NCBI GenBank assembly: GCA_016719055.1
Contig: JADKAW010000018.1
Span: 2,015-66,014, forward strand
Origin: Candidatus Rhodoferax mariagerensis
GTDB taxonomy: Bacteria; Pseudomonadota; Gammaproteobacteria; Burkholderiales; Burkholderiaceae_C
Length of the DNA stretch: 64,000 bases
Direction: 5' to 3'
Shown here: positions 22,960-36,827 of the stretch, one piece after another
How positions within the stretch are numbered: position 1 is the stretch's first letter
Layout of the letters: every line of letters begins with the position of its first letter
Notes under the pieces: generated by a model
Told to the model about the DNA's origin: nothing
The model's input: the letters and a program-made list of their open reading frames with translations, nothing else
The model's database searches: none
Position numbers and translations under genes: made by a program

Positions 22960-23089
22960 CGTGCGCGGTTCAATCTGTCAAAAAATATAAGCAGAATTTG
23001 ACTTTGCTCAAAGTCTGATGTGATTCGATGCTGACAATGTTATGGCACCTATCCGTTTGCTTGAATGCTTATTACGTCTGGAGATTTTT

Positions 23090-24031
23090 ATGAAAATTAC
23101 CGAAGTTCACCGGAGTCTCGCGCTGATCTTTGGCAGTTGCCTGCTGGCTACTTCGTTGTCTGCGCAGGCCGCACCCAAGGGTGCCAAAGCGATTTTTGAC
23201 AGCGGCGGCGGCGGCGGCACGATTGGTATGTCGGTCAACGCTGCACGCCCGGCCACACCGGTCGCAAATGCCGAGCCAGTGTCCCAGAGGTATGTGGGTA
23301 TTTCTTACCAGATCATGGCCATTGAAAACGATGGCCAGATGCGGCCAGTGTCAAAAAACCGCACCTTTCGTTCAGGTGAGCGCGTCAGAATTCTGGCCAG
23401 CACCAATCGGCCAGGCTACTTGACAGTGGCCAACATTGGCACCTCGGGCCGGATGACCGTGCTGTTTAGCGAGTATGTGGACGCCTACAGGATGACCCAG
23501 ATTCCGCAAAACAGCAATTTGCGTTTTGATGGCAATCCTGGTACAGAAAACGTGTTGATCATGTTGTCCAACGAGCCCAACCCGATCGCGGGGCCTTCCA
23601 ACAGTGTGGTGTCGGCACCCCCTGCGCCTACTTATCCGACGCAGGTATCAACACCGGCCCCAGCGCCGGCCTACCCCGCACCAGTATCGGCACCCTATGT
23701 GCCGCCGCCGCCCATGCCGGGCACCGATACCGCAACAGCGCCAGCCTACCCAGCGCTGCCACCTGAGCAGGCCAGTGCCAGTTTGGTGGCCTCGCTCGAC
23801 GGTGCCAAGAGTCTCAAAGCCAAAGGGTCCAAAGATCTGATGGTGGAAGACAGCATGGAAAACTCCTACACGGTCGTGTCTCCCAGACAAGGAGGCTACA
23901 AGGCCGTCAGCGGTGGTGCCAAAGATTTGATCATGGAGTCAACAGAAGGTACCAATTACGGCATGGTGCCGGTGGCCGCTGTTTCTGGGGGCGGCATCCT
24001 GACGCTAGAAATCAAACTTAAACATCGCTAA
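23090..24031 (+). CDS. Secreted DUF4384-like protein with Pro-rich linker and C-terminal G-[AS]-K-D-L motifs
   Basis: Signal peptide MKITEVHRSLALIFGSCLLATSLSAQA. FRSGERVRILASTNRPGYLTVANIGTSGRMTVLF...GTENVLIMLS resembles DUF4384. A PAPxYP-rich linker follows. GGAG lies before the ATG at 23090. Confidence 0.7.
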   Translation: MKITEVHRSLALIFGSCLLATSLSAQAAPKGAKAIFDSGGGGGTIGMSVNAARPATPVANAEPVSQRYVGISYQIMAIENDGQMRPVSKNRTFRSGERVRILASTNRPGYLTVANIGTSGRMTVLFSEYVDAYRMTQIPQNSNLRFDGNPGTENVLIMLSNEPNPIAGPSNSVVSAPPAPTYPTQVSTPAPAPAYPAPVSAPYVPPPPMPGTDTATAPAYPALPPEQASASLVASLDGAKSLKAKGSKDLMVEDSMENSYTVVSPRQGGYKAVSGGAKDLIMESTEGTNYGMVPVAAVSGGGILTLEIKLKHR

Positions 24032-24034
24032 CCG

Positions 24035-24059
24035 ACAACGGCTATCTGCCGTTGTTTTG
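24035..24059 (+). terminator. Possible terminator after the DUF4384-like gene
   Basis: ACAACGGC-tatct-GCCGTTGT followed by TTT. Confidence 0.45.
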
Positions 24060-24117
24060 CAATGTCGTAGACGTTAATTAATATTGACGGGCTATTGTGG
24101 CCCGGGAGATGCAACAA

Positions 24118-24822
24118 ATGAAAAGACCTTATACGCGCTCGGTAGCCAAAGTCATGCTGCCCGTGTTCTTGACTGCCTGTGCAGCGCTACCGCCGCCAGG
24201 AACCCGCTTGACTGACCAAGAGCGCGCTGAGGCCCAAAAAACCTGCGTGAATCAGTACGTTGTAGGGGGTGCCATCGGCGGAGCACTTCTGGGCATGCTG
24301 GTCTCAAGCAGCAAAGACCGTACGCAGGGTGCGGTGGTCGGTGCTATTGCCGGCGGCGCTCTGGCACACAGTTATGCCTGGGGCAAGTGCTTGTCGTATT
24401 ACTCTGACACCAACAGTTTCCCGGTTGCCAACGCCCAGCAGACGGCTGCGGCAGTGGGCTACACGGCCAGTCGGGGTAACGAAGTGCGTATCCAGAGTTT
24501 TGTCGTGACTCCAAGCCAGATTGCACCTGGGGGCAATCTCAAGCTCAATGGTTCTTACTATGTGATGGCGCCTGATGGCCAGCAGCAGGTCAAGGTGATT
24601 GAAACCCGCACCGTGTACTACCAGGATCCCAAAGACAACTCATGGAAAGAACTGGGTTCAGAAACAACGCCCATCACTGCGGCACTTGGCAGTCGTCGGT
24701 CCGAAGGACAAACCGGCATGCCGGTCGAGGTGGCCGAGGGGCGCTACCGCGTGACGTTCAAGGTCAGTGCGCTGGGTCGCGAAGATCAAGCCTCGCAGGA
24801 AGTCGTGATCAAAAAGTCTTGA
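24118..24822 (+). CDS. Lipoprotein with glycine-zipper segment and beta-rich C-terminal domain
   Basis: Lipobox VFLTAC and a glycine zipper GGAIGGALLGMLV...GAVVGAIAGGALA (Rick_17kDa/SlyB-like). The start could also be 24097 or 24109. Confidence 0.65.
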   Translation: MKRPYTRSVAKVMLPVFLTACAALPPPGTRLTDQERAEAQKTCVNQYVVGGAIGGALLGMLVSSSKDRTQGAVVGAIAGGALAHSYAWGKCLSYYSDTNSFPVANAQQTAAAVGYTASRGNEVRIQSFVVTPSQIAPGGNLKLNGSYYVMAPDGQQQVKVIETRTVYYQDPKDNSWKELGSETTPITAALGSRRSEGQTGMPVEVAEGRYRVTFKVSALGREDQASQEVVIKKS

Positions 24823-24828
24823 CCAACC

Positions 24829-26100
24829 ATGAACTGCCGTCGTAACAAGCCGATTTTCCTGTTATTTGCGTTGTTGTTGGCGCTGGCGTTGCCCGTGTTC
24901 GGGCAGCAAGCGTCGCCAACACCAGTGACGCAGCAGCATTTGCAGATCATCAATTCGGCTTTTGCCCGCAACGGGGTGGTCAACGGGCGGGTCGAGTTTG
25001 ATGCCTACGGCAGGGTCGAGCTCAAAGGTGATTATGTCGACGAGCCAGAGGTTGACCGGGCTTTTTCGCTGGCGCAAGTAGTGGTGGGCGTCAAGTGGGT
25101 GTCGCCAGTCACACCAGAAAACATCCAGGTCAAAACTTGGGAAAAGAAGCTTGGCAACCTCTTTGCCCGTGCCAATGTGTTGCAGCCATCGGTGCGTGGA
25201 GACGGCATGCCCGGGCCAATCCGCAACCGTTATGCTGTGGTCGTTGGGGTAGGGCGCTTCAAGTATGGCATTCAGCCGCTTGAATATGCTGCCCGAGATG
25301 CGCTGGCTTTTTATCAGTTTCTGACCGATCCGCGCCGGGGGCAGTTCCGCCCCGACAATGTTGTTTTCCTGACCGACGAAAACGCCACGCGCTCCAATGT
25401 TGCCGTTGCGCTTGACAAGCTGCGTCAACTGGCAGGCGAAGATGATCTGGTGACGGTGTATATCAGCAGTCACGGCAGCCCGCCAGACAAAAAAGGGGCG
25501 GTCAATGTGGTGACGTATGACACCGAGACCAAACCCCGCGAGCGCATCTGGTACACCTCGGTGACCGAAGATATGCTCAAAGAATTTGTCGAAGGTGTCA
25601 AAGCCAAGCGCTTGGTCATGGTGCTCGACACTTGCTACAGCAATGGTGCCTACCGGGCTGTCCCGGGCTTTTTGCCGCCTGGTGGCAAATCACTTGGCGC
25701 GGGTGACAGCGAAGGTTACGGCATCAGCCAGGAGTCCAGCCGACGCATGCTCGGTGGTGCCAAGGACCTGGTGCTGGAAGACGACACGCGCCGCGCCACA
25801 ACTGCCAAATCAGTCAATATTGGATCGACCGAGCCCTATGGGAAAGTGCTCATTGGCGCCAGTGGCTCAGGCGAGCAGTCGTGGGAGTCGGAAAAGCTGC
25901 GAAACAGCATTTTCACCTACTACTTTGTCGATGGACTCAACCGCTACAGTGGTTCGGTGCAACAAGCATTCAACTATGCCAAACCTCGTGTTGCCAGCCG
26001 CGTCAAAGAAGAAAAAGGTCACGACATTGACCAGAACCCGCAAGCCATGGCGACCATGCCCAACTGGGACATGCGCTTGACGCAAGCGGCCACACGTTAA
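24829..26100 (+). CDS. Secreted BON-domain caspase-like protease (peptidase C14 / orthocaspase)
   Basis: Signal peptide MNCRRNKPIFLLFALLLALALPVFG. The N-terminus is BON-like (GRVELKGDYVDEPEVDRAFSLAQVVVGVKWV). The C14 core RYAVVVGVGRFKY...YISSHGS (His codon 25471) and VLDTCYSNGA (Cys codon 25633) is present. The gene starts 6 bp after the preceding gene. Confidence 0.8.
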   Translation: MNCRRNKPIFLLFALLLALALPVFGQQASPTPVTQQHLQIINSAFARNGVVNGRVEFDAYGRVELKGDYVDEPEVDRAFSLAQVVVGVKWVSPVTPENIQVKTWEKKLGNLFARANVLQPSVRGDGMPGPIRNRYAVVVGVGRFKYGIQPLEYAARDALAFYQFLTDPRRGQFRPDNVVFLTDENATRSNVAVALDKLRQLAGEDDLVTVYISSHGSPPDKKGAVNVVTYDTETKPRERIWYTSVTEDMLKEFVEGVKAKRLVMVLDTCYSNGAYRAVPGFLPPGGKSLGAGDSEGYGISQESSRRMLGGAKDLVLEDDTRRATTAKSVNIGSTEPYGKVLIGASGSGEQSWESEKLRNSIFTYYFVDGLNRYSGSVQQAFNYAKPRVASRVKEEKGHDIDQNPQAMATMPNWDMRLTQAATR

Positions 26101-26120
26101 CTCCCCACTGAGGACTGTTT

Positions 26121-26786
26121 ATGCACACCACGAAAAACGCATCCCTATGGCTTAGCACTTTGGCCAGTGCTGTTGTTCTGCTGTCAGGCTGCGACAAAAT
26201 TCCAGGATTGGGCAAACCCGCAGAAGCACCCGCACCCGTGGCAGCACCGGTTGCACCGCCACCTGTTGCGGACCCTGCCCCGGCAACCATTGCCGTAGCA
26301 CCTCCTACAGTTGCAACCTCACCTGCACCCGCGGCTGGCCCCAGTCTGGAAGTACAGAGCCACATCAAGCAAGCATTTGCTTACATCAGTATGGCAAAAA
26401 ATGCGCAAGGCTCAATCCGCGAAGAGAACATTGATAACGCGCTCAAAGAGTTTACGGTTGCGATTCAAAAAGATCCCAACTACGCCGAAGCCTATTCCAA
26501 CCGGGCTGCCACCTACATGCAGCAGAAAAAATTCAACAAGGCCGACGATGATTTGCGGCGCGCCAAAGAGTTGTCACCAGACAGTCCATCCGTGCGTTAC
26601 AACTACGCCAGCTTGCATTCGCTCAAAGGGAACGTCGACCTGGCGCTGGATGAGGTCGATGCCGCCTTGACCAAAGGCTTTTCGGACTATGACGCGCTGC
26701 GCCTTGATCCGGACCTGAATAATGTGCGAAAACACCCAGAATTTCGAAAAATTCTTGAAAAACACAAGGTGTTTATCGTCAAGTAA
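26121..26786 (+). CDS. TPR-repeat lipoprotein
   Basis: Lipobox LLSGC, an Ala/Pro-rich linker, then TPR units (DPNYAEAYSNRAATYMQQKKFNKADDDLRRAKELSPD...). Confidence 0.75.
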   Translation: MHTTKNASLWLSTLASAVVLLSGCDKIPGLGKPAEAPAPVAAPVAPPPVADPAPATIAVAPPTVATSPAPAAGPSLEVQSHIKQAFAYISMAKNAQGSIREENIDNALKEFTVAIQKDPNYAEAYSNRAATYMQQKKFNKADDDLRRAKELSPDSPSVRYNYASLHSLKGNVDLALDEVDAALTKGFSDYDALRLDPDLNNVRKHPEFRKILEKHKVFIVK

Positions 26787-26830
26787 AACGCGTTTGGAAG
26801 TTGATGGAGCAACCTTGAAAGTTTGATGTC

Positions 26831-27220
26831 ATGCGCCAATTCGTCCGTTCCCTGGTCATGGTGCTGGTCGCGTGTGTAGGTTCGGACTTATGGGCACAGC
26901 AGCCTGACCCCACTTCCACGCGCCGGTTCGCAGATTGCCTGTGCCGTTGCTCCAGCGGCTGGGCAGCCCATATTGGCGTGTTTTATGACCCGGATCACAA
27001 GCATGCCGCCACTTGCGAAAGTGCTGGCCCGTGTATTGGCGGCATTGGAGCGTTTGGCTGCTCCAGCAGGCACTATCTGAGTGCGACGACCGAATGCAGT
27101 CGCAGTTGCTGGGAGCAGGCGTTTGCCGGGCAGGCTTTCAACAACGGCACCATCACCGAGTTTTCTGACACGCTCAATCAGCGCTATCGACAGCGCCAAG
27201 GATCAACGGGCGGCAAATAG
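26831..27220 (+). CDS. Small secreted 8-cysteine protein (stand-alone copy of a module also found in the giant protein)
   Basis: 129 aa with a signal peptide. CLCRCSSGWAAHIGVFYDP...CESAGPCIGGIGAFGCSSRH...TECSRSCWE is about 66 percent identical (counted by eye) to residues encoded at 31707-31899. Confidence 0.65.
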   Translation: MRQFVRSLVMVLVACVGSDLWAQQPDPTSTRRFADCLCRCSSGWAAHIGVFYDPDHKHAATCESAGPCIGGIGAFGCSSRHYLSATTECSRSCWEQAFAGQAFNNGTITEFSDTLNQRYRQRQGSTGGK

Positions 27221-27308
27221 GCGCAGGCTCGCGCCGCAATGACGGCGTGCCAACAGGGCTAGGTTCATTGGACGTTCGCTATCAACTGGCGCAAACAAGA
27301 GGCACCCC

Positions 27309-30300
27309 ATGAAACTATTTGGCTTTCGCACCCTTGCACAAGCGTTGGTCAGCCTCTGGCTGGTCGTTGCAGCCGGTCTGTTGCCAGCCTTCGGCGCATC
27401 CAATCAGGAATTCCCATACCCGCTGGGCGAGCATATTCTGGCCAGCATCCTGCGTCATGAAAAGCACACGGATGCGTCACTGCTGCTGCTCACGCAGAAC
27501 CTCAAATGGTATGAACAGGAAAAGGGCAAACTGCCAGGCCCGATACAAGATGAAATTCAACACCTGAGAATCAATTTGGCGGGCGAGGTAGCCCAATCTT
27601 CGGCGCGCCAACTCGGCGAAGCCGAGGCGGCTTTTGCTGCCACTGGCTCCTGGAAGCCAGGGCGTGACATGGACATTGTTTACATGGGCAAAAATGGCGA
27701 CGCAGCAGCCCAGTCGATTGCCCGCAACTATGAAGCCCGCAGTGCCAATATTCTGGCCAGCGCCGAAATCGACCCCATTCTGAAAAGTTATAGCGGTGAT
27801 GTCCCGCGCAGCCTCACCGCCAACAGCTTGGCCGTCTGTACCACCGAGCTTCCCAACTTTGGCTATGAAGACCTGAACAAGGCCTTTAACCAGGCCAAGC
27901 AGGCGCTCGCGCGCGGCGAATCAAAAGACGAGATTATGGCCACGCTGCGCCGTGACATCCAGCAAGCCATGGCCAACAACATGAACGGCCATTTTGCAGC
28001 GCAGGCCAACCCGGACTACTACGCCGGAGCCACCGGGCAGAAATGGTTTCAAGACACTTACCTAGACAAACCGGACAAAATGCGCACCTTCATGCAGAAC
28101 GAGAGTGGCAACTGGGTGCTCAAGCCGGGCGGCATCCAGGCGGTGCCTGCCGACATCGTTGAGCGTCTTGGTTTTGGCTCCATGGGTGGCTCGGGCGTCA
28201 AGTTTTCCAAGATCGCGTCGGACTACGCACTCTTCTTCTCGCACATGCATGGTGGTCCCTCTGACAACGCCAAATATGTGCTGCGGGTCTGGAAAGACAT
28301 GGGGTTAAATGCCATTCAGGATTTGAGTGCGGCTGAAGTCAAGATGCTGGCAGCGGCCAAGAAGATTGACTTGAAGCCATCGCAAGCGTCGCAAGAACTG
28401 GCCAAAATAGGGCTCAGTGTGGATGACTTCAATGCGAACATGTCGCGCATTCTGTTGAACTGGACCGAGTCGCAGTTGGTCAAAGACATGGACCTGCTGG
28501 TCACTGAACTGGGGTCGAGTTCAGCCAAAACGGTGGACGAACTCGACAAACTGCTGCGCCAGGCCAAAACCACCATGAACCTGAATGAACTGGTGGCGGG
28601 TCTGGATAAGCTCAAGGTGGCACCCCCGGAGGTGCGGGCACGCCTGATTGATCGGCTGAAAGCCAAGTTTGGCAGCACGCCAGCGGGCGTTGCCGCCATC
28701 AACTTTGTCATGCGCAATCTGGGCCTGCTGGGCGACTCCAGCGGTGAGCTGACGCGCCGTTTGGTCATCATCCTGAAAGACATGGGGAAAATCCAGCCGC
28801 AAGATGCTGACGCCTTGCTGCGCGGCGAACCTGCTTCTGACGCGGCCCAGGCGCAGATGAAACGGGCACGGCAGGAGATTGCTGCGCTCAGTTCCGGTGG
28901 CATGGTGGAATTTGACGACGCATTGGATGTGGACCGACTGATGGAGGACTGGCGCAAAGCCAAGCCCGATGCCTTGCTGCAGTCACCCAGCGACGAACTG
29001 AAGAAAACCCTGGAAGAATTGCGCGGCTCGGTCGATGAGGCCAGGCTCAAAGAACTTGGTTGGGCCGACGATGAGATTGCCGCCCACCGGCGTGTGCTGG
29101 ACCGCATGCGCAAGGATGCCATGCGCAAGCTGGGTCAAAAACTCGAACCTCGCCTGGTCAAAGGTGGGGTAAGCCTGCGCAACTTCCAGCAAAAAATGCG
29201 CGAATTGATCTTTAGCCCCGCCTACACAAAATTTGGCGATGCCAGCTCATCCGTAGGAGTGTTTGATGCCGTGGTGGGGGTCGCAGCCGGCTTGTACTCC
29301 ACTTATGACATTCTCAACAACCAGCGCTTGTCGCCTGCCGACGAAGCGCAGGCGCTTGAAAACGCCTGGGTCACGGCTATTCCGATCGTGGGCGACTTTG
29401 CTCAGGGCTTGATCACCGGCGGTCAGGCTTTTTACGAGGGCGACAAGGGCAAGGCACTGGAGGCCGGTCTGTGGATCACCATCGGCACCATGGGCTGTGT
29501 ACCAGGTGGGCAGTTGCCGGCCGTTATTCTTGGCATCGGGCTGGCGACCAAACCCATTGTGGCTGGATCCTACGATGCCCGTCAGGCACAGCATCTGGTG
29601 CAGGCCTGGATCGAGTCAGGCAAATGGAGCAAGGACAAGCCTCGCAAGCTGCTGGGTTTGTATGACCGAGCCTCGGGCGATCCCGAGATCTATCTGGACA
29701 TCAAATACTCTGAACTACTGACTGACAAGGGCAAACTTCCCTATAAATCTACCCGCTTGGGTGACGTCAGTATCAACCAGTCGATTCGTGACTACGCCGA
29801 AAAATATGTGACGCCGCAGTATCCGGCCATCAAGTCGATCCGCGAAGCCTTGCTCAGCGTGTACCCCGATTTCAATGACAAGGAGTGGAGTGACGAATTC
29901 TCGGCGAGTCTCAAGATTGATGCGCGTGGAGGCAAGGGTAGCAAGATCCTGTTTCGTTCTTACTTCCAGTTGCATGGCAAGGCGATGGTGCAAACCATCA
30001 ACCATCTCAAACAATGGGCTGAAGACGAGATGCGCGCGCTCAAGGATTACGACTCAGAAGCTGCGCGCCTGCGCGACGAACTCCGCACACTTGAGCGTGC
30101 CCTGCAAACCGGCAATCTGGTCAGCAATGCCGATGCTTCAGTCGAGGCCTACAGCAAGATCGTTGCCAACTTGTGGGAACAAGAGAGCCTGCCGTTGGCC
30201 AGGCTGCGGATTTACGAGCACTACGTCAATACCTACAGAACGATTGAAGGCAAACTGCGCCGGGTGATGGACATTCTGAAAGAAGCCAGCAACCCCTTCC

Positions 30301-33300
30301 TGCCGCCGGGCTGGCACCTGACCGGTTACCCCGAACTGGACCGAGACCGGGTCGACAAGCTCAGCGCCAGCATGGAAAACGGTCGCAAGGGTGTGATTGA
30401 GGACATTGAAAACACTCTGAAAGAGTTTGGCATTCGCAGCACGCGTTATGACAAAAACAACGCTTGCCACAAGGCGGCGTTTGATGCGCTGGCGCCTTTG
30501 CGCTACAAATATGCCTTCATTGAATTTCAGGCGCTGTATTTCAAGGCGTTGGCAGAAGGTAGTTCCACCTGGTCATCGGCTTTTGAGACTGCCAAGGCAC
30601 GTTATCAGGAGTCGCGCGCGCAGGTGCTGCGCAACATCGGCAGCAATCTGCAGTCCCACCCGCATGTCATGATGCTGATGGAGCAAAAAGCCATGACCGA
30701 TGCGTTCATGAGCTTTGTGGTGGCTGTGCCCTACGCGCTGGCATCGACTGAAGTTGGCGTGTACCAGTCTGCCGCACGTGACTACGAGTTGCGCCAGTAC
30801 AGCGCGGGGCTGGACTACCAGCTCGCCAAGGGCCGCAGTGGCAAAGTTGGGCGTGACCTGGCAGACTGCCTGCAGGCGCAGTTGCAGATTGACCTGCAGC
30901 TGTCCAACCCGCAACCCGAAGCAGGTACCGACGTCACTGCTAGTTATCGCCTTGTCAAGGGCGAAACCCACGCGGATGTGGTTTGGGACTGGAAGCTCGA
31001 AGGTGCGCTGGTGAAAAAGACGGCCGAACCAGGTAGCTTGGTGTTTACCGTGAATGGACCCGGCAAGCTGACGGTTTTTTTGCGCGACTGGTACAACCCC
31101 AACACAAGCAAATATGGCAAGGTTCTGGCCCAAATCAGTGCCGATATTCAGCCTGGCCTGCCGTCAGATGTGAAGGTGTTTGTCAGCGGGCCGACCCAAA
31201 CCGAATTGGGCAGTAGCGTAAGTTATTTCGCCTCCATCGACGCCAAGCCGGGTGTGGCCCAGGCGATGCTGGCCAATGCCCACATTGAATGGCGGCTCAA
31301 TGGCGACGCCGGCGCAGGCAGCGACAGCAGTTTCCGCTTTTCACCGATACGCACGGGCAGCTACAGCGTGGTCGCTACCGCCTACGTGATGGAACGTGGC
31401 AAAAAGCGGGTCATCGCCAGTTCTCGTCCTGTTACTTTGCAAGTGCGTGACGGCATGGACAAAGACAAAGACGGTGCTGCCAACCCGGACAAGGGCAAAC
31501 GCGATGGTGAACCGGACAAGCCCAAAGAAGCCCCGTCCTGTAGCTACACCTATTCTGAATGGGGCGAGTGCAGCCGCGCCACCAAGAAACAAACCCGCAG
31601 CGTGACCGTTACCCAGCCCGCGGGCTGCGTGGAAAAAGCCAAGCCGGTGCTGGAGCAAGGCTGCACCCCGCCACCGAGCGAAGAGGACAAGAAAAACAGC
31701 TACCTCAACTGCCTGTGTCGTTGCTCCAGTGGCTGGGCCGGACACATCGGTGTCTGGTATGACCCCGAGCAAAAGACGGTGCCGGAGTGCAAGAGCTCCG
31801 GCCCCTGTATTGGCGGTATTGGCGCCTTTGGCTGCTCCAGCCGGCATTTTTTCAACTCGTCAACCGAATGTGCCAAAGGCTGCTGGGAAGGCGCTTACGG
31901 TAAGGGATCGTTTGACGCTGAAAAAGCCAACAAAATGGCCAAAGAAGAGAACAAGAAGTACAAGAAGCCGCCAACGGTGAAGATCAACGCTTCCAAAAAT
32001 CCGGCAGACTTTGGCGACATCGTGAGCCTGACGGCGCAGGCCAGCGAAGGCAGTGGCGGTTACAAGTGGAATTGGGGCGGCTGTGCGCAGGACGCCAAGG
32101 ACAACACGGCCAAGGTGCTTAACTCGCGCAGTTGCCAGGCTTGTCAGGCCTCGGTCACGGTGACCGACTCTGATGGTGATTCGGCGTCTGACAACCTGAC
32201 GATCCAGTGCACCGCGCTCAAGGTCAAGCTCACCAAAGAAAGCCCCAAAGAGAGCCGGCTGCCAGTGGGCAGCTCAGCCAAATTCCTGGCTGAGGTGATG
32301 TCAGGCACGCAGGCGGCGTCGGGCAGCTTCTCGTACATCTGGGAGCGCAATCCGGACGCCGTTTTTGGCGATCCCAAAAACCCGGCTTATGAAACCAAGG
32401 GCGGTGCGCAGTCACGCAACACCGCCAGCTTTGGCAAGCTGGGCACGATTCCGATCTGGGTCTCGGTGCTCAAAGAGGTCGATGGCCGCAAGATGACGAT
32501 TGGCGAGTCCGAGCAGATCATGATGGAAGTCGTCAAGCCCAAGCTCACCCTCAGCGCCGAACCGAAAGACGCCCTGGTTGGCCAGGAGATCAAGATCACC
32601 GTGCAAGAAGAACCCAAGATGAGCGACGATTTGTTGTCGTTCTGGTGGGAAATCAGTGGTGAGGCCAACAACCCAGGGCCAGTCCCCAATGTGCCCAACA
32701 GCCGCGCTTATTCGTTCAAACCCAAGTCTGACAAACCAGTGACTGTCACTGTGCATGCCAAGGCCAAAGACGGCGGTGATGAACTGGGCGTTGAAAAAAT
32801 CACCTTACAAGCCAAAAAGCCATCGATAACCGTCACCGGGCCGAAGATTGCCGGACCGGCGCCCATGATCTGGAAAGAGGGTGTCGGGCTGGTGTCCGTG
32901 GGCCAGCAGGTTGTTGAAGACCAGCGGGTTGAGTTTGCCGTGACCGTGTCGCCCGAATTGAAACAGGAGCTGCGCTACCAATGGAGCGTGAAGCCCGAAG
33001 GCTGTAGCCTGAGTGCGCCATCATCCAAAGAAACCGGCATCACCTGCGCCAAGACCGGCGGCTATGCGCTCACGGTCATCGTGCGCAACAGCGAAGGCGC
33101 CGAACTCGGCAGCGGCGAGGGCAGCCTGAACGTCACGGTGTCGCAATCCGACATCAAAAAAGGCAAGCAAAAAGACGAAGCCGCCAAAAAACTGGAGCAA
33201 GCCCGAGCGTTGTGGAGTCAGGGCAAGATTGACGAGGCACTGGCACTGTTGGCAACCGTGGCCAGCACCGAGCCCCAATTGGCCGCTCCGGTGAGCAATC

Positions 33301-35729
33301 AGTTTGGACAGGGCCTGAAGAAACTGGGCAGCGACGCCCTGCAGGCGCTGGACCCCACCACGGCCGTGAAGCGCCTGGAGCAAGCCGTGAAACTGCTGCC
33401 AGGTGATGCCGAAATTCGACAAAAACTGCAGCAGGCCCAACAGATGGTGCAGTTGCAAGCGCAGGCACTGCAGTTTCTTGAGGCTGCCAAGGCCAATCTG
33501 GCACGCGGTGTGCCAGCCGACGTGAAAGGGCTGACAGAACTGATCGCCGAGCTGAAAAAGCGTGAAGCTGCCTTTGCCCCGGCCGACCCGCGCCGCCCAC
33601 CGTTTGCCGCCCTAGCCGCCAGCGCGCAGCAAAAGCTGGTGCAGGCACAGCAACAAGCCGCTGCCTGTGAAGCCAAGTGGACCGAGGGCAAAGCCTTGTA
33701 TGACGCGAAAAAAATGCCCGAAGCTCTGGCCAAATTCAAGGAAAACCTGATCTGCGAACCAGGTCGACCCGAACGCCAAGCCTATGTCGGGCAGTTAGAG
33801 CAGGCCATCAAGGCGCAACAAGCCCAGCAAGCCGCTGCCAAACGTCTGCGCGACGAGGGTGCCGCCCTGCAGGCGCAAAACAAGCTGCCAGAGGCACTGG
33901 CCAAATACCGCGAAAGCCTCAAGCTGCTACCAGACCCAGCACTGGCCCAGCACATACAGACCCTGGAGCGCCAGCTACAAGAAGCGCAGCAAAAGGCGGC
34001 CCATGCACAACAGTTGCGTGCTGAAGGCGAGGCCTTGCAACGCCAAAACCACATTCCCGAAGCCATTGCCAAGTACCGTGAAAGTCTGAAGCTCGTGCCT
34101 GATGCCAAGCTGGAACAGCACATTCAGTCCCTGGAGCGCCAGGTACAGCAACAGCAGCAAACTGCTGCACAGGCGCAGAAGCTGCGGGCTGAGGGTGAGG
34201 CCCTGCAACGCCAAAACCACATTCCAGAAGCCATTGCCAAGTACCGCGAAAGCCTCAAACTCGTGCCCGACGCCAAACTTGAGCAGCACATTCAGACCCT
34301 GGAGCACCAGGTGCAACAACAGCAGCAAACTGCAGCCCAAGCGCAAAAGCTGCGGGCTGAGGGTGAGGCATTGCAACGCCAAAACCGCATTCCAGAGGCA
34401 ATTGCCAAGTACCGTGAAAGTCTGAAACTGGTTCCCGATGCCAAGCTGGAGCAACATATTCAAACCTTGGAACAACAAGCGCAACAGCAACAGCAAAACA
34501 CGGCGCAGGCACAAAAACTGCGGGCTGAAGGCGAGGCACTGCAACGACAAAACCGCATTCCGGAAGCGATTGCCAAATACCGCCAAAGCTTGAGTCTGGT
34601 ACCTGATCGCTCGCTGGAGCAGCATATTCAGACCCTTGAGCAGCAAACGCAACAGCAGCAACAAAACATGGCGCAGGCGCAAAGGCTGCGTGCTGAAGGC
34701 GAGGCGTTGCAACGTCAAAACCGCATTCCTGAGGCAATTGCCAAATACCGCCAAAGCCTGAGCCTGGTGCCCGATCGTGCGCTGGAGCAGCACATTCAGA
34801 CGCTGGAACGGATACTGCAGACACCAGCGCCCGTGCCCGCGGTGCCACCCATTGACCATGGCGGGCGCTCATACACCTCGATGGAGCCGGCGCCAGCGCC
34901 CACGCCTCAGGTCAAGCCAGGTACGTTGGTCGATAGCGGCAATGTTTCAGGCGTTTACAACATGCCAACCCGCCCGACCGTGATCCGGCTGGCACAAGAA
35001 ATCGTTCTGACCAGTATCACCAACTACCACTGGAACGACGGCCGTGGCACGTCCCGCACTGGGAGCATCGCCCTGCGCGATGCCAGCGGACGCAGCTATG
35101 GCCCATGGCCAACCAGCGGACGCCCGGGCCAGGGGGGGGTGCCCAATGCCTACTGGACAGCCACGCCCAACGTCAGACTGCCAGCAGGAGACTATGTCGT
35201 GACTGATTCCGACCCCGCCACCTGGTCGCAAAACAGCGGTTCGGACGGCGCGGGGCACACCCGCTTTGACGGCTATCCGACCTCACCCACGAGTGGTGGT
35301 CGGGTGGCCACGGTGCTGCCGACATCACCGCATGCATCGCCGGTGCAGCCCACACCCCAACCGCCGCCGCCAAGTCAGAAACCAGCCAACTTTGATGGCA
35401 GTTATGTAGGTCAATTTGGCGGCGATGGCGGTGGCCCGATTCGTTTTACCGTGCGTGGCGCCAATGTGCAAGGTCAGGTCAACGGCAACATTGACGGCGA
35501 CAAGGTGACAGCCACCTTGTCGGGCACCGTCAGCGCGGCTGGGCAGATCACCATGCAAGTCAAGGGGACGGTGCAGTGGCGACTGTCGTCGCAGTCGCAA
35601 TACAGCGAAACCCCGTTCAACGGCCAGTTGACCGGCACCATTCAGGGCAGCCACGTCAGTGGGCGATGGACTGCCGTCAGCATGGACCAGGACGACAAAC
35701 GCTCTGGCACCTGGACCGCCAGCCGTTAG
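27309..35729 (+). CDS. Giant (2806 aa) secreted multidomain protein: helical N-region, Gly-rich hydrophobic segments, Ig-like domains, Cys modules, TPR-like tandem repeats, beta-rich C-terminus
   Basis: One uninterrupted ORF. AAGAGG lies before the ATG. Signal peptide MKLFGFRTLAQALVSLWLVVAAGLLPAFGAS. The domain calls come from sequence patterns only; I recognise no named family for the first ~1190 aa. Confidence 0.85.
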   Translation: MKLFGFRTLAQALVSLWLVVAAGLLPAFGASNQEFPYPLGEHILASILRHEKHTDASLLLLTQNLKWYEQEKGKLPGPIQDEIQHLRINLAGEVAQSSARQLGEAEAAFAATGSWKPGRDMDIVYMGKNGDAAAQSIARNYEARSANILASAEIDPILKSYSGDVPRSLTANSLAVCTTELPNFGYEDLNKAFNQAKQALARGESKDEIMATLRRDIQQAMANNMNGHFAAQANPDYYAGATGQKWFQDTYLDKPDKMRTFMQNESGNWVLKPGGIQAVPADIVERLGFGSMGGSGVKFSKIASDYALFFSHMHGGPSDNAKYVLRVWKDMGLNAIQDLSAAEVKMLAAAKKIDLKPSQASQELAKIGLSVDDFNANMSRILLNWTESQLVKDMDLLVTELGSSSAKTVDELDKLLRQAKTTMNLNELVAGLDKLKVAPPEVRARLIDRLKAKFGSTPAGVAAINFVMRNLGLLGDSSGELTRRLVIILKDMGKIQPQDADALLRGEPASDAAQAQMKRARQEIAALSSGGMVEFDDALDVDRLMEDWRKAKPDALLQSPSDELKKTLEELRGSVDEARLKELGWADDEIAAHRRVLDRMRKDAMRKLGQKLEPRLVKGGVSLRNFQQKMRELIFSPAYTKFGDASSSVGVFDAVVGVAAGLYSTYDILNNQRLSPADEAQALENAWVTAIPIVGDFAQGLITGGQAFYEGDKGKALEAGLWITIGTMGCVPGGQLPAVILGIGLATKPIVAGSYDARQAQHLVQAWIESGKWSKDKPRKLLGLYDRASGDPEIYLDIKYSELLTDKGKLPYKSTRLGDVSINQSIRDYAEKYVTPQYPAIKSIREALLSVYPDFNDKEWSDEFSASLKIDARGGKGSKILFRSYFQLHGKAMVQTINHLKQWAEDEMRALKDYDSEAARLRDELRTLERALQTGNLVSNADASVEAYSKIVANLWEQESLPLARLRIYEHYVNTYRTIEGKLRRVMDILKEASNPFLPPGWHLTGYPELDRDRVDKLSASMENGRKGVIEDIENTLKEFGIRSTRYDKNNACHKAAFDALAPLRYKYAFIEFQALYFKALAEGSSTWSSAFETAKARYQESRAQVLRNIGSNLQSHPHVMMLMEQKAMTDAFMSFVVAVPYALASTEVGVYQSAARDYELRQYSAGLDYQLAKGRSGKVGRDLADCLQAQLQIDLQLSNPQPEAGTDVTASYRLVKGETHADVVWDWKLEGALVKKTAEPGSLVFTVNGPGKLTVFLRDWYNPNTSKYGKVLAQISADIQPGLPSDVKVFVSGPTQTELGSSVSYFASIDAKPGVAQAMLANAHIEWRLNGDAGAGSDSSFRFSPIRTGSYSVVATAYVMERGKKRVIASSRPVTLQVRDGMDKDKDGAANPDKGKRDGEPDKPKEAPSCSYTYSEWGECSRATKKQTRSVTVTQPAGCVEKAKPVLEQGCTPPPSEEDKKNSYLNCLCRCSSGWAGHIGVWYDPEQKTVPECKSSGPCIGGIGAFGCSSRHFFNSSTECAKGCWEGAYGKGSFDAEKANKMAKEENKKYKKPPTVKINASKNPADFGDIVSLTAQASEGSGGYKWNWGGCAQDAKDNTAKVLNSRSCQACQASVTVTDSDGDSASDNLTIQCTALKVKLTKESPKESRLPVGSSAKFLAEVMSGTQAASGSFSYIWERNPDAVFGDPKNPAYETKGGAQSRNTASFGKLGTIPIWVSVLKEVDGRKMTIGESEQIMMEVVKPKLTLSAEPKDALVGQEIKITVQEEPKMSDDLLSFWWEISGEANNPGPVPNVPNSRAYSFKPKSDKPVTVTVHAKAKDGGDELGVEKITLQAKKPSITVTGPKIAGPAPMIWKEGVGLVSVGQQVVEDQRVEFAVTVSPELKQELRYQWSVKPEGCSLSAPSSKETGITCAKTGGYALTVIVRNSEGAELGSGEGSLNVTVSQSDIKKGKQKDEAAKKLEQARALWSQGKIDEALALLATVASTEPQLAAPVSNQFGQGLKKLGSDALQALDPTTAVKRLEQAVKLLPGDAEIRQKLQQAQQMVQLQAQALQFLEAAKANLARGVPADVKGLTELIAELKKREAAFAPADPRRPPFAALAASAQQKLVQAQQQAAACEAKWTEGKALYDAKKMPEALAKFKENLICEPGRPERQAYVGQLEQAIKAQQAQQAAAKRLRDEGAALQAQNKLPEALAKYRESLKLLPDPALAQHIQTLERQLQEAQQKAAHAQQLRAEGEALQRQNHIPEAIAKYRESLKLVPDAKLEQHIQSLERQVQQQQQTAAQAQKLRAEGEALQRQNHIPEAIAKYRESLKLVPDAKLEQHIQTLEHQVQQQQQTAAQAQKLRAEGEALQRQNRIPEAIAKYRESLKLVPDAKLEQHIQTLEQQAQQQQQNTAQAQKLRAEGEALQRQNRIPEAIAKYRQSLSLVPDRSLEQHIQTLEQQTQQQQQNMAQAQRLRAEGEALQRQNRIPEAIAKYRQSLSLVPDRALEQHIQTLERILQTPAPVPAVPPIDHGGRSYTSMEPAPAPTPQVKPGTLVDSGNVSGVYNMPTRPTVIRLAQEIVLTSITNYHWNDGRGTSRTGSIALRDASGRSYGPWPTSGRPGQGGVPNAYWTATPNVRLPAGDYVVTDSDPATWSQNSGSDGAGHTRFDGYPTSPTSGGRVATVLPTSPHASPVQPTPQPPPPSQKPANFDGSYVGQFGGDGGGPIRFTVRGANVQGQVNGNIDGDKVTATLSGTVSAAGQITMQVKGTVQWRLSSQSQYSETPFNGQLTGTIQGSHVSGRWTAVSMDQDDKRSGTWTASR
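33828..34835 (+). repeat. Six tandem 168-bp (56-aa) coding repeats inside the giant gene
   Basis: Units start at 33828, 33996, 34164, 34332, 34500 and 34668. The consensus is AAQAQKLRAEGEALQRQN(H/R)IPEAIAKYRESLKLVPDAKLEQHIQTLE-Q-QQQQQ. Confidence 0.9.
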
Positions 35730-35756
35730 CACCGTCTTTGCCAGAACCGCAGTGGC

Positions 35757-36827
35757 TTAAGACAAGCGCAAACCGGTCTGCTCGTCAAACCAGTTGTTGT
35801 GGTTGCTGCTTACTGACAGGCCCACGTTGTCGCCCACCTTCACCTGTGTGCTTGGTGGCGTGCGCACGGTGATCAGACCAACACCGGTCTTGATCACCAC
35901 ATAGGTGTCAGCGCCGGTGGGTTCGACCAAGGTGACTTCACCGCGCCAGGTGGCGTCATCCGCCAGGTGGATGTGTTCCGGGCGCTGGCCCAGCGTGACT
36001 TTGCCTTGCACCGGGCAGGGCAGGGTAAGACTGCCATCGTCAAAAGAAAATAGGCCTCCAGCCCCCGTCCCGCTTGCGCTGCCAGCTATAAAGTTCATAG
36101 TTGGCGAGCCAATGAATCCGGCCACATAGGTGTTGGCTGGCAGGCGGTATATCTCGTCGGGCGTGCCAATTTGCTGCAGGATACCGTCTTTCATCACCGC
36201 AATGCGGCTGCCCAGCGTCATGGCCTCGATCTGGTCGTGCGTGACGTACACGCTGGTGATGCCACTGACCTGGTGCAGGCGCTTGATCTCGGCGCGCATC
36301 TCCACGCGCAACTTTGCATCGAGGTTGCTGAGCGGTTCGTCAAACAAAAACAGCTGCGGGTCGCGCGCCAGGGCACGCCCCATGGCGACACGCTGGCGCT
36401 GCCCGCCCGACAACTGCGCCGGGCGGCGGTCCAGCAGGTGCTCGATCTGCAGCATGGCCGCCACTTCGTGGATGCGTTTGTTGCGTACCTCCAGTGGCAC
36501 CTTGCGCATTTCCAGCGCAAAGCCAATGTTGTCAGCCACGCTCATGGTCGGGTACAGCGCGTAGCTCTGGAACACCATGGCAATGTCACGCTGCGCGGGC
36601 GCCACGCCAATCACGTTTTTGCCGGCAATCTTGAGTTCACCCTCGGTCGGGTCTTCGAGGCCGGCAATGATGTTGAGCAGAGTCGATTTGCCACAACCCG
36701 AGGGGCCGACCAGAATCAAAAATTCACCCGGGGCGACTAGGATGTCGATTTTTTTCAGGACTTCGACCGCCTTGTCGGCCTTGCCAAAAACCTTGCGGAT
36801 GCCTGCAATGTGAAGGGATGCTGCCAT
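35757..36827 (-). CDS. Sugar ABC transporter ATP-binding protein (MalK/UgpC-like)
   Basis: Walker A GPSGCGKST, signature LSGGQRQR, Walker B LFLFDEP, and a MalK-type C-terminal domain. Confidence 0.9.
   Translation of the reverse strand: MAASLHIAGIRKVFGKADKAVEVLKKIDILVAPGEFLILVGPSGCGKSTLLNIIAGLEDPTEGELKIAGKNVIGVAPAQRDIAMVFQSYALYPTMSVADNIGFALEMRKVPLEVRNKRIHEVAAMLQIEHLLDRRPAQLSGGQRQRVAMGRALARDPQLFLFDEPLSNLDAKLRVEMRAEIKRLHQVSGITSVYVTHDQIEAMTLGSRIAVMKDGILQQIGTPDEIYRLPANTYVAGFIGSPTMNFIAGSASGTGAGGLFSFDDGSLTLPCPVQGKVTLGQRPEHIHLADDATWRGEVTLVEPTGADTYVVIKTGVGLITVRTPPSTQVKVGDNVGLSVSSNHNNWFDEQTGLRLS

What the first reader, a model, noticed from the sequence alone, without database searches (positions are those of the whole stretch)
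26933..31899. An 8-cysteine module exists both as a stand-alone secreted mini-protein and embedded in the giant protein
Seen: the mini-protein segment CLCRCSSGWAAHIGVFYDPDHKHAATCESAGPCIGGIGAFGCSSRHYLSATTECSRSCWE is encoded at 26933-27128. The giant-protein segment CLCRCSSGWAGHIGVWYDPEQKTVPECKSSGPCIGGIGAFGCSSRHFFNSSTECAKGCWE is encoded at 31707-31899. About 43 of 65 residues are identical and all 8 Cys align. The DNA is also recognisably similar. I do not recognise this as a named domain. Inference: this is a four-disulfide extracytoplasmic domain. The free copy could act as a partner, competitor or chaperone-like ligand for the embedded one, or it may be a recent partial duplication.
Basis: seen in the sequence. 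Interest (0 to 1): 0.65.

Follow-up and report, generated by a model that had tools for sequence, protein, structure and literature searches.

The report
Free copy of giant's cysteine domain
A small exported protein encoded just before a 2,806-residue bacterial surface protein is an old, still-maintained copy of that giant's most conserved piece, an eight-cysteine domain with no name and no known fold, which makes it a convenient stand-alone reagent for finding out what that domain does.

Summary
A 129-aa ORF (26831-27220) and the 2806-aa ORF (27309-35729) share an eight-cysteine module: 42 of 60 residues identical, all Cys aligned, BLASTP E=1e-37. No Pfam, NCBIfam, PDB-sequence or Foldseek match exists, so it is an unnamed domain. 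AlphaFold2 models it confidently as two CX3C-bearing helices holding a Gly-rich beta-hairpin loop. Cys4 and Cys6 are always kept or lost together (75 against 20, never one alone), which fits a disulfide.

The module is the conservation peak of a family of giant PKD/TPR proteins found in Thermodesulfobacteriota, Nitrospirota, Acidobacteriota and Pseudomonadota. These usually end a cassette of DUF4384 protein, Gly-zipper lipoprotein, C14 caspase-like protease and TPR lipoprotein.

The mini-gene is not a recent duplicate. Synonymous sites are saturated. All minis form one clade nested among betaproteobacterial giant modules. They occur only in a few Rhodoferax-like contigs, always between the TPR-lipoprotein gene and the giant gene. 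Their dN/dS is 0.06-0.18, and metatranscriptome contigs cover the gene.

So the mini is a domain-precise, functional, lineage-restricted paralogue. A role as partner or competitor is plausible but untested. Interest is moderate.

The parts
26831..27220 (+). Mini-protein gene, 129 aa plus stop. It lies 44 nt after the TPR-lipoprotein stop and 88 nt before the giant's start.
   Evidence: ORF list and translation. Intact orthologues exist in L001, L002, L006, L060 and L010, and as a 315-aa long form in L007-L009. dN/dS is 0.10-0.18 over the whole ORF. RNA contigs cover 26642-27160.
26831..26896 (+). Signal-peptide-like N-terminus (aa 1-22, MRQFVRSLVMVLVACVGSDLWA). It has an AXA-like site LWA|QQ and, overlapping it, a lipobox-like L-V-A-C.
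   Evidence: Read from the sequence. Orthologues keep it. The Rhodoferax bin_246 homologue has a different leader with L-L-G-C and AVA|Q. No signal-peptide predictor was available, so this is inference.
26936..27115 (+). Eight-Cys module of the mini (aa 36-95, CLCRC...CSRSCWE).
   Evidence: 42 of 60 residues identical to the giant copy. AF2 pLDDT is about 90 over this stretch, with H27-41, E68-70, E79-81 and H87-97.
27116..27217 (+). C-terminal helix and tail of the mini (aa 96-129). It aligns with giant aa 1528-1553.
   Evidence: The BLASTP alignment runs to mini aa 121. AF2 gives a helix at 105-125. The giant-invariant Asn (ENKKY / LNQRY) is retained.
27309..35729 (+). Giant protein gene, 2806 aa: signal peptide, about 1400-aa head, TSR-like domain, eight-Cys module, PKD-like domains, TPR array, beta-rich C-terminus.
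   Evidence: Homologues of 1550-4057 aa.
31539..31664 (+). TSR/midkine-like four-Cys domain directly before the module (aa 1411-1452).
   Evidence: Pfam PTN_MK_C scores 21.9 bits, below the 25.3 cut-off. The profile hits pleiotrophin at E=0.09. The only Foldseek hits of the 166-aa model are TSR-bearing proteins, best midkine-a at prob 0.90, E=0.31.
31710..31889 (+). Eight-Cys module of the giant (aa 1468-1527).
   Evidence: It is the conservation peak of the protein: 0.84 identity in aa 1441-1500 against 0.34 overall across 14 giants. dN/dS is 0.005-0.03 between orthologues.
31890..31967 (+). Third helix and Lys-rich linker after the giant's module (aa 1528-1553, ...EENKKYKKP).
   Evidence: AF2 helix at 136-148 of the 166-aa segment. 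N147, K149 and P153 are invariant in A3.
23042..24031 (+). DUF4384 protein, first gene of the conserved cassette.
   Evidence: Pfam PF14326, E=7.8e-11. It holds the same position in L001, L003, L004, L007 and L066.
24097..24822 (+). Glycine-zipper lipoprotein.
   Evidence: Pfam PF05433. Syntenic in the related loci.
24829..26100 (+). Caspase-like protease (Peptidase_C14).
   Evidence: Pfam PF00656, E=4.2e-15. Syntenic.
26121..26786 (+). TPR lipoprotein, the gene immediately upstream of the mini.
   Evidence: Pfam TPR families. In cassettes without a mini it is followed by the giant after 93-134 nt.

Best explanation
The eight-Cys module is an unnamed extracytoplasmic domain of about 95 residues.

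Predicted architecture. Helix 1 carries Cys1-x-Cys2-x-Cys3. A long Gly-rich loop (GWAGHIGVWYDP ... GPC[IF]GG[IA]GAFGC[ST].RH) forms a small beta-hairpin. Helix 2 carries Cys7-x3-Cys8. A third helix follows. Cys1/Cys3 and Cys7/Cys8 make a twin-CX3C pair that probably staples the two helices with two disulfides. Cys4-Cys6 is a disulfide in the loop, and Cys2-Cys5 is the remaining pair.

Place in the giant. The module follows a TSR/midkine-like domain and is the first and most conserved piece of the shared core of a family of giant secreted PKD/TPR proteins whose N-terminal heads vary. These giants usually close a cassette of DUF4384 protein, Gly-zipper lipoprotein, C14 caspase-like protease and TPR lipoprotein.

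Origin of the mini. In one Rhodoferax-like (Comamonadaceae) lineage exactly this domain, from linker to linker, was copied once. The copy was placed in the spacer between the TPR-lipoprotein gene and the giant gene and acquired an export signal. It has since been kept as a gene.

Proposed function. The mini is exported, free or lipid-anchored, and presents the same conserved loop surface as the embedded domain. It therefore most likely engages the same conserved partner and tunes the giant's interaction by competition or pre-loading.

Shown: homology, domain-precise borders, single old origin, purifying selection, transcription, lack of any named relative, the Cys4/Cys6 coupling.
Inferred: the other disulfide pairs, export and the way the leader is processed, and the whole partner/competitor function.

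The confidence of 0.6 is for the statement as a whole. The shown part alone (a real, maintained, domain-precise paralogue of an unnamed conserved domain) I put at about 0.85, and the same-partner/competitor function alone at about 0.3.
For: - Homology: BLASTP E=1e-37 and 42 of 60 identical.
- No named family or fold.
- Rarity: only 36 clusters in 1.84 billion representatives match the mini. They are mostly giants or apparent fragments of them, plus the mini clade and a few short, more divergent proteins.
- Structure: AF2 models have mean pLDDT 79.6 and 83.2, with the module near 90 and the same secondary structure in both contexts.
- Cys4/Cys6: 75 sequences have both, 20 have neither, none has only one, with at least four different replacement pairs (S/N, A/A, H/G, N/G).
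- Conservation peak of the giant; variable heads.
- Cassette synteny without a mini in Syntrophus gentianae, a P0007-type giant and a third giant (P0031, contig L066). Cassette with a mini at the same spot in L001, L002, L007-L009 and L010.
- Tree: minis are monophyletic (97/100), nested among betaproteobacterial giant modules (81/93), with stem length 0.73.
- Selection: mini dN/dS is 0.06-0.18, and the signal peptide and tail are also constrained. Giant module dN/dS is 0.005-0.03. Paralogue dS is saturated.
- Retained surface: 29 of 47 giant-invariant positions are kept in all four minis that were compared.
- Transcription: RNA contigs on the mini in three metatranscriptomes.
- Operon layout: no terminator-like site between the TPR gene and the giant on the + strand.
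Against: - No interaction was tested, and no multimer prediction was possible.
Only Cys4-Cys6 has independent support.
- 18 giant-invariant positions are replaced in the minis, mostly by fixed differences (N to D, G to A, P to A, E to T/S, F to L, K to R). The mini may therefore have a different partner.
- The Shine-Dalgarno match is weak: GAAAG in the window, GAAGG in orthologues, about 10 nt upstream.
- The RNA evidence comes from assembled contigs, which can include DNA carry-over and give no strand. One RNA contig lacks a base at 27136.
- The mini is absent from nearly all lineages that carry the cassette, so it is not needed for the cassette's core function.
Confidence: 0.6

Rival explanations
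1. Protease-handle reading. The module, flanked on both sides by conserved basic linkers (..EEDKKNSY.. and ..ENKKYKKP.. in giants; ..TSTRRF.. and ..NQRYRQRQ.. in the mini), is the element that the cassette's Arg/Lys-type C14 protease recognises or excises from the giant. The mini is then a ready-made excised module that acts as a decoy substrate, inhibitor or released signal.
For: - A C14 protease gene stands two genes upstream in most cassettes.
- The basic residues after helix 3 are invariant in giants (N147, K149, P153) and stay basic in the minis (K to R).
- The borders of the duplicated piece coincide with these two linkers.
- That prokaryotic caspase homologues cut after basic residues is stated in the abstract of PMC6426788.
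Against: - No cleavage data exist.
- An earlier scan note places this protease's candidate site in a G-[AS]-K-D-L motif of the DUF4384 protein. I did not see that motif next to the module in the printed sequences and did not search for it.
- One giant with the module (P0059) has no adjacent caspase cassette.
- Lys-rich linkers are common between domains of secreted proteins.
Confidence: 0.13
2. Neofunctionalised paralogue. After the duplication the mini changed partner and now does something unrelated to the giant, for example binding a metal ion through the two invariant His and the Asp, or binding an envelope component. It keeps only the scaffold of the domain.
For: - A long stem branch (0.73) leads to the mini clade.
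- 18 of 47 giant-invariant positions are replaced, most by the same residue in all four minis compared.
- The mini's dN is 4-9 times that of the embedded module in the same genome pairs: 0.053 against 0.006, and 0.116 against 0.026.
- A long form fuses the module to an unrelated N-terminal domain of about 190 aa.
Against: - The loop motifs that are invariant in giants (GWA.HIGV, DP, GPCIGGIGA.GCSSRH) are the parts best kept in the mini.
- The gene has stayed inside the cassette, directly before the giant, in every contig in which its neighbours could be read.
Confidence: 0.2
3. Non-functional leftover. The mini is a decaying partial duplicate or an annotation artefact that makes no protein.
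For: - Gene callers skipped it in one contig (L001).
- The ribosome-binding site is weak.
- It is absent from most cassettes.
- One RNA contig carries a 1-nt deletion.
Against: - The 129-codon frame is open in five independent assemblies at dS 0.3-0.9, with dN/dS 0.10-0.18. It is also open in a 62%-identical Rhodoferax homologue and in the long form.
- All 8 Cys and the export signal are kept.
- RNA contigs cover it in three runs.
Confidence: 0.04

Closest known systems
Twin-CX3C helical hairpins (plant alpha-hairpinin defence peptides, review PMC7191063; small Tim proteins of mitochondria, from general knowledge)
   Same: Two CX3C motifs each sit on a predicted helix (C36-x3-C40 in H27-41; C89-x3-C93 in H87-97 of the mini). 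This is the arrangement that lets two disulfides staple antiparallel helices.
   Different: - There is no detectable sequence or fold similarity.
- The connecting 'loop' is a conserved subdomain of about 46 residues with a beta-hairpin and four further Cys.
- A third helix follows.
- The context is a bacterial giant envelope protein.
Thrombospondin type-1 repeat / midkine-pleiotrophin domains
   Same: The domain directly before the module resembles them: a W..C..R layered motif, four Cys, and weak Pfam, PDB-profile and Foldseek matches. Together the two domains form a eukaryote-like Cys-rich adhesion-type region.
   Different: The similarity concerns only the neighbouring domain and stays below curated thresholds. 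The eight-Cys module itself matches none of them, and the mini does not include the TSR-like part.
Prokaryotic C14 (orthocaspase/metacaspase-like) gene neighbourhoods with DUF4384 (reviews PMC7475262, PMC6426788)
   Same: The module-bearing giants sit in a cassette with a C14 protease and a DUF4384 protein.
   Different: I found no description of the giant, of the eight-Cys module or of a free copy of it. Only the titles and abstracts of those papers were seen.

Membership tests
Any Pfam-A or NCBIfam family (for the eight-Cys module) | A match to a curated profile at or above its cut-off | tested here: not met
   The mini, its Rhodoferax homologue and the long form give no hit at E<=1. In the giant nothing covers aa 1460-1555.
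Any solved fold (PDB) | Sequence or structural similarity to a solved chain | tested here: not met
   phmmer and hmmsearch give only chance-level hits. Foldseek with the mini model gives a best E of 5.4. With the 166-aa model only the TSR-like part finds weak matches. Small disulfide-rich domains are hard cases for Foldseek.
Twin-CX3C / alpha-hairpinin-type helical hairpin | Two CX3C motifs, each on one helix of an antiparallel pair | tested here: met
   C36/C40 lie in predicted helix 27-41 and C89/C93 in helix 87-97. The same holds in the giant segment. That the helices are antiparallel and disulfide-linked could not be checked without coordinates.
Twin-CX3C / alpha-hairpinin-type helical hairpin | A simple helix-loop-helix peptide with four Cys and a short loop, with homology to known members | tested here: not met
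   The domain has eight Cys, a conserved 46-residue insert with a beta-hairpin, and a third helix. No sequence or fold match was found.
Thrombospondin type-1 / PTN-MK domain (the neighbour domain only) | A profile match above threshold and the layered three-strand fold | tested here: inconclusive
   PTN_MK_C scores 21.9 bits against a cut-off of 25.3. Pleiotrophin is hit at E=0.09. Foldseek finds midkine-a at prob 0.90 but E=0.31 and TM 0.24-0.30.
Disulfide-bonded extracytoplasmic domain | Paired conservation or loss of cysteines, and export signals | tested here: met
   Cys4 and Cys6 are both present in 75 and both absent in 20 of 95 distinct sequences, never singly. Signal-peptide-like N-termini are read from the sequences. 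The chemistry was not tested.
Bacterial lipoprotein (for the mini) | Lipobox [LVI][ASTVI][GAS]C at the end of the signal peptide | tested here: inconclusive
   L-V-A-C in the window and L001 and L-L-G-C in L010 fit the lipobox. L-I-V-C in L002, L006 and L060 fits poorly. All also have an AXA-type site further on, and the long form has no Cys in its leader.
Asp-Pro self-cleaving modules (VWD GDPH sites, FrpC-type self-processing module; from general knowledge) | A conserved Asp-Pro bond at which the chain cleaves itself | not tested
   WYDP is invariant in the main clade, but the Asp is E, A or Q in the distant six-Cys clade. No surrounding similarity was found. This is a lead only.

The most novel reading that the evidence does not exclude
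The eight-Cys module is the element through which the cassette's caspase-like protease acts on the giant protein. It is docked on, or cut out at the conserved basic linkers that flank it, which separates the variable head from the PKD/TPR stalk. The Rhodoferax-lineage mini-protein is then a genetically 'pre-excised' module that works as a decoy, inhibitor or released signal for that proteolytic switch.
Probability: 0.12. Interest if true: 0.7.

Novelty: new variant of a known kind. Interest (0 to 1): 0.42.

Why it matters
The giant PKD/TPR proteins and their caspase cassette occur in several phyla, including cultured strains such as Syntrophus buswellii DM-2 and Allochromatium humboldtianum DSM 21881. 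Nobody knows what they do. Their most conserved piece is this unnamed domain, with dN/dS near 0.01.

A naturally occurring, independently folding and exported 107-residue version of the domain is a practical entry point. It can be expressed, its structure solved, and it can be used as bait to find the partner. That is much harder with a 2,806-residue protein.

The finding also adds a candidate new small disulfide-rich fold. It is a clean example of a domain-precise duplication that survived under selection.

Tried and rejected
- Named-family searches (Pfam, NCBIfam), PDB sequence and profile searches, and Foldseek with two models gave nothing for the module.
- A recent duplication or gene conversion between the two copies is rejected. 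DNA identity is only 63-67%, dS is saturated, and minis and giant modules form separate clades with no sign of concerted evolution.
- The MAFFT figure of 79% 'mean column identity' overstates the DNA similarity. Direct pairwise identity over the core is 67%.
- The sigma-70 promoter and terminator scan found nothing above the shuffled expectation and no site between the TPR gene and the giant. It is uninformative.
- A word-indexed search with the mini found only 2 relatives. The exhaustive search found 36 clusters. The metagenome scan added only one further short-form contig plus duplicates of known ones.
- The literature search for DUF4384 plus caspase gave reviews on cyanobacterial orthocaspases and nothing on this module.
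Other copies elsewhere in the genome, and the identity of the genome, could not be checked directly.
- Model coordinates are not returned, so Cys-Cys distances could not be measured.
- No multimer prediction was possible.
Full report
**1. Observation**

The window holds a 129-aa ORF at 26831-27220 (+) and a 2806-aa ORF at 27309-35729 (+). BLASTP aligns mini aa 25-121 with giant aa 1454-1553: 48 of 100 identical, E=1e-37. In the Cys1-to-CWE core (26936-27115 and 31710-31889), 42 of 60 residues are identical and all eight Cys are in register. 100,000 shuffles never gave more than 15 of 60.

Identity is 67% over the 201-nt core and synonymous sites are saturated. A motif scan of the window's three forward-strand frames found only these two copies; the reverse strand was not scanned.

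**2. The domain has no name and no known fold**

- Pfam and NCBIfam give nothing for the mini, for its homologues or for giant aa 1460-1555.
- PDB sequence and profile searches give only chance-level hits.
- AlphaFold2 with a 34-row alignment models the mini at mean pLDDT 79.6, about 90 across the module. Elements are helix 27-41 (holding CLCRC), strands 68-70 and 79-81, helix 87-97 (holding CSRSC) and helix 105-125.
- The giant segment aa 1402-1567 gives the same elements behind a small beta domain (pLDDT 83.2).
- Foldseek against the PDB finds nothing for the mini (best E=5.4).
- For the giant segment Foldseek gives only weak hits. The best-ranked are TSR-bearing proteins: complement C6/C8/C9, midkine, pleiotrophin, MIC2, properdin and semaphorin-5A. 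They fit the domain in front of the module, in line with a sub-threshold PTN_MK_C match and a pleiotrophin profile hit.

**3. Cysteine pattern**

Among 95 distinct module sequences, Cys4 (PEC) and Cys6 (FGC) are both present in 75 and both absent in 20, never singly. There are at least four different replacement pairs (S/N, A/A, H/G, N/G). That is what a disulfide predicts.

Cys1/Cys3 and Cys7/Cys8 are two CX3C motifs on two predicted helices. This arrangement is known from twin-CX3C helical hairpins such as the plant alpha-hairpinins (PMC7191063). By elimination Cys2 would pair with Cys5.

**4. Where the module occurs**

- An exhaustive HMMER search of 1.84 billion representatives with the mini found just 36 clusters. 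They are mostly giants or apparent fragments of them, plus the mini clade and a few short, more divergent proteins.
- A search with giant aa 1380-1560 found 71 proteins of 1550-4057 aa, mostly 60-91% identical in that stretch and as low as 41% in the most distant hits.
- A scan of one genome per species found 50 loci. They lie in Syntrophus (including S. buswellii DM-2), Syntrophorhabdus, Geobacter, Dissulfurispiraceae and other Nitrospirota, Acidobacteria, Thiobacillus, Allochromatium humboldtianum DSM 21881, Methylococcales, Ideonella and Rhodoferax.
- In an alignment of 14 full-length giants, aa 1441-1500 is the conservation peak: 0.84 identity against 0.34 overall.
- Some giants align to the window's giant only from about aa 1350-1410 onward. 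The N-terminal heads are therefore exchangeable, and the TSR-like domain plus the module open the shared core.
- Between orthologous giants the module's dN/dS is 0.005-0.03.

**5. Gene context**

In the window the giant is preceded on the same strand by a DUF4384 protein, a Gly-zipper lipoprotein, a C14 caspase-like protease and a TPR lipoprotein. The same cassette precedes giants in Syntrophus gentianae, in a P0007-type giant and in a giant with another head. It does not precede the 4057-aa giant P0059. In cassettes without a mini, the TPR-lipoprotein gene and the giant gene are 93-134 nt apart. In the window they are 523 nt apart, and the mini fills that space.

**6. History of the mini**

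Orthologues lie at the same spot in every contig where the neighbours can be read:

| Locus | Form |
|---|---|
| L001 | 129 aa, not called by the gene finder |
| L002 | 129 aa |
| L006 | 129 aa |
| L060 | 129 aa |
| L010, Rhodoferax sp. bin_246 | 133 aa, 62% identical, different leader peptide |
| L007-L009 | 315-aa long form |

In the long form the module follows an unrelated N-terminal domain and the peptide IDRGGRSYTSIEP, which also stands at giant aa 2515-2527.

A maximum-likelihood tree of 57 modules puts all minis in one clade (97/100). That clade is nested among the betaproteobacterial giant modules (81/93) and sits on a long stem of 0.73. The copy therefore arose once, in a Rhodoferax-like lineage, and long ago.

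The copied piece runs from the linker after the TSR-like domain to the Lys-rich linker after helix 3. That is exactly one structural domain.

**7. Is the mini a working gene?**

- Between five short-form orthologues dS is 0.1-0.9 and dN/dS is 0.07-0.18 over the whole ORF. Values are similar for the leader, the module and the tail.
- All eight Cys and 29 of the 47 positions that are at least 90% conserved in giants are kept in all four minis compared. The other 18 positions are mostly fixed differences.
- In the same genome pairs the mini's dN is 4-9 times that of the embedded module.
- Assembled contigs of three sludge metatranscriptomes match 26642-27160 at 99-100% identity. Other contigs of the same runs match the DUF4384, Gly-zipper, caspase and giant genes.
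- Caveats: these are contigs, not reads. They give no strand, DNA carry-over is possible, and one contig lacks a base at 27136.
- The ribosome-binding site is weak.
- The N-terminus reads as an export signal with both an AXA-type site and, in some orthologues, a lipobox-like motif. Which one is used is undecided.

**8. Mechanism**

Shown:
- The module is a conserved, unnamed, disulfide-bearing extracytoplasmic domain.
- The mini is a domain-precise, old, single-origin paralogue under purifying selection, and it is transcribed.

Inferred:
- The mini keeps the invariant loops (GWA.HIGV, DP, GPCIGGIGA.GCSSRH) and has stayed next to the giant inside the cassette. It therefore most likely meets the same conserved partner as the embedded domain and modulates that interaction.

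Rivals:
- A protease-handle role tied to the neighbouring C14 enzyme.
- A new function after divergence.
- A dead remnant, which the selection data largely exclude.

**9. Verdict**

The domain is extracytoplasmic, disulfide-rich and unnamed. The copy is not recent. The partner idea is open.

The domain family and its predicted fold look new. The phenomenon, a stand-alone paralogue of one domain of a large secreted protein, is of a familiar kind. Its main value is practical: it gives a small handle on a widespread family of giants of unknown function.

Noticed in passing
L007:8001-8948 (also L008, L009); window giant aa 2515-2527 (about 34851-34889): A 315-aa long form of the mini carries an unrelated N-terminal domain of about 190 aa (no Pfam or NCBIfam hit) and the peptide IDRGGRSYTSIEP. 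That peptide recurs almost unchanged near the C-terminal part of the window's giant. The gene at this position seems to be a mosaic assembled from pieces of the giant.
   Followed up: partly
window 27309-31500 (giant aa 1-1400): The N-terminal 'head' of the giants is exchangeable. P0007, P0031, P0036 and P0059 align to the window's giant only from about aa 1350-1410 onward, while Syntrophus-type giants share the whole head at 50-55% identity.
   Followed up: partly
window 26831-26896: The mini's leader has a lipobox-like L-V-A-C (L-L-G-C in Rhodoferax bin_246, but L-I-V-C in three other orthologues) as well as an AXA-type signal-peptidase-I site. The two upstream genes also look like lipoproteins (LTAC, LSGC).
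   Followed up: no
window 22640-36600: Sludge metatranscriptome contigs match several cassette genes: 23335-23837, 24204-24438, 24851-25084, 26642-27160 and 30909-31100. The whole cassette therefore appears to be transcribed in situ. One RNA contig lacks a base at 27136.
   Followed up: partly
module position 7 (CRC[YS]CGW) in related giants: 20 of 95 distinct modules carry a ninth cysteine two residues after Cys3, giving an odd number of Cys. Its partner, if any, is unknown.
   Followed up: no
window 31758-31763 (giant WYDP); mini 26984-26989: An Asp-Pro bond is invariant in the main clade of modules and in the minis. The Asp varies (E, A, Q) in the distant six-Cys clade. Asp-Pro bonds are the cleavage sites of some self-processing extracellular modules. 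This is a lead only.
   Followed up: no
L001:13961-18307: In the closest related contig a second large TPR-bearing protein (1448 aa) follows the giant on the same strand. In the window the giant is followed instead by an ABC-transporter ATPase-like ORF on the opposite strand (35757-36827).
   Followed up: no
L053, L057, L059; P0088, P0090-P0092: A distant six-Cys version of the module (FLNCACRCSSGWAGHIGVWY.PNP...GGxGPCIGGAGSYGGTSRH) lies at the C-terminal end of proteins of 130-1450 aa from Desulfobacteraceae and Methylococcales. It has no TSR-like domain in front. This looks like a second architectural context for the domain.
   Followed up: no
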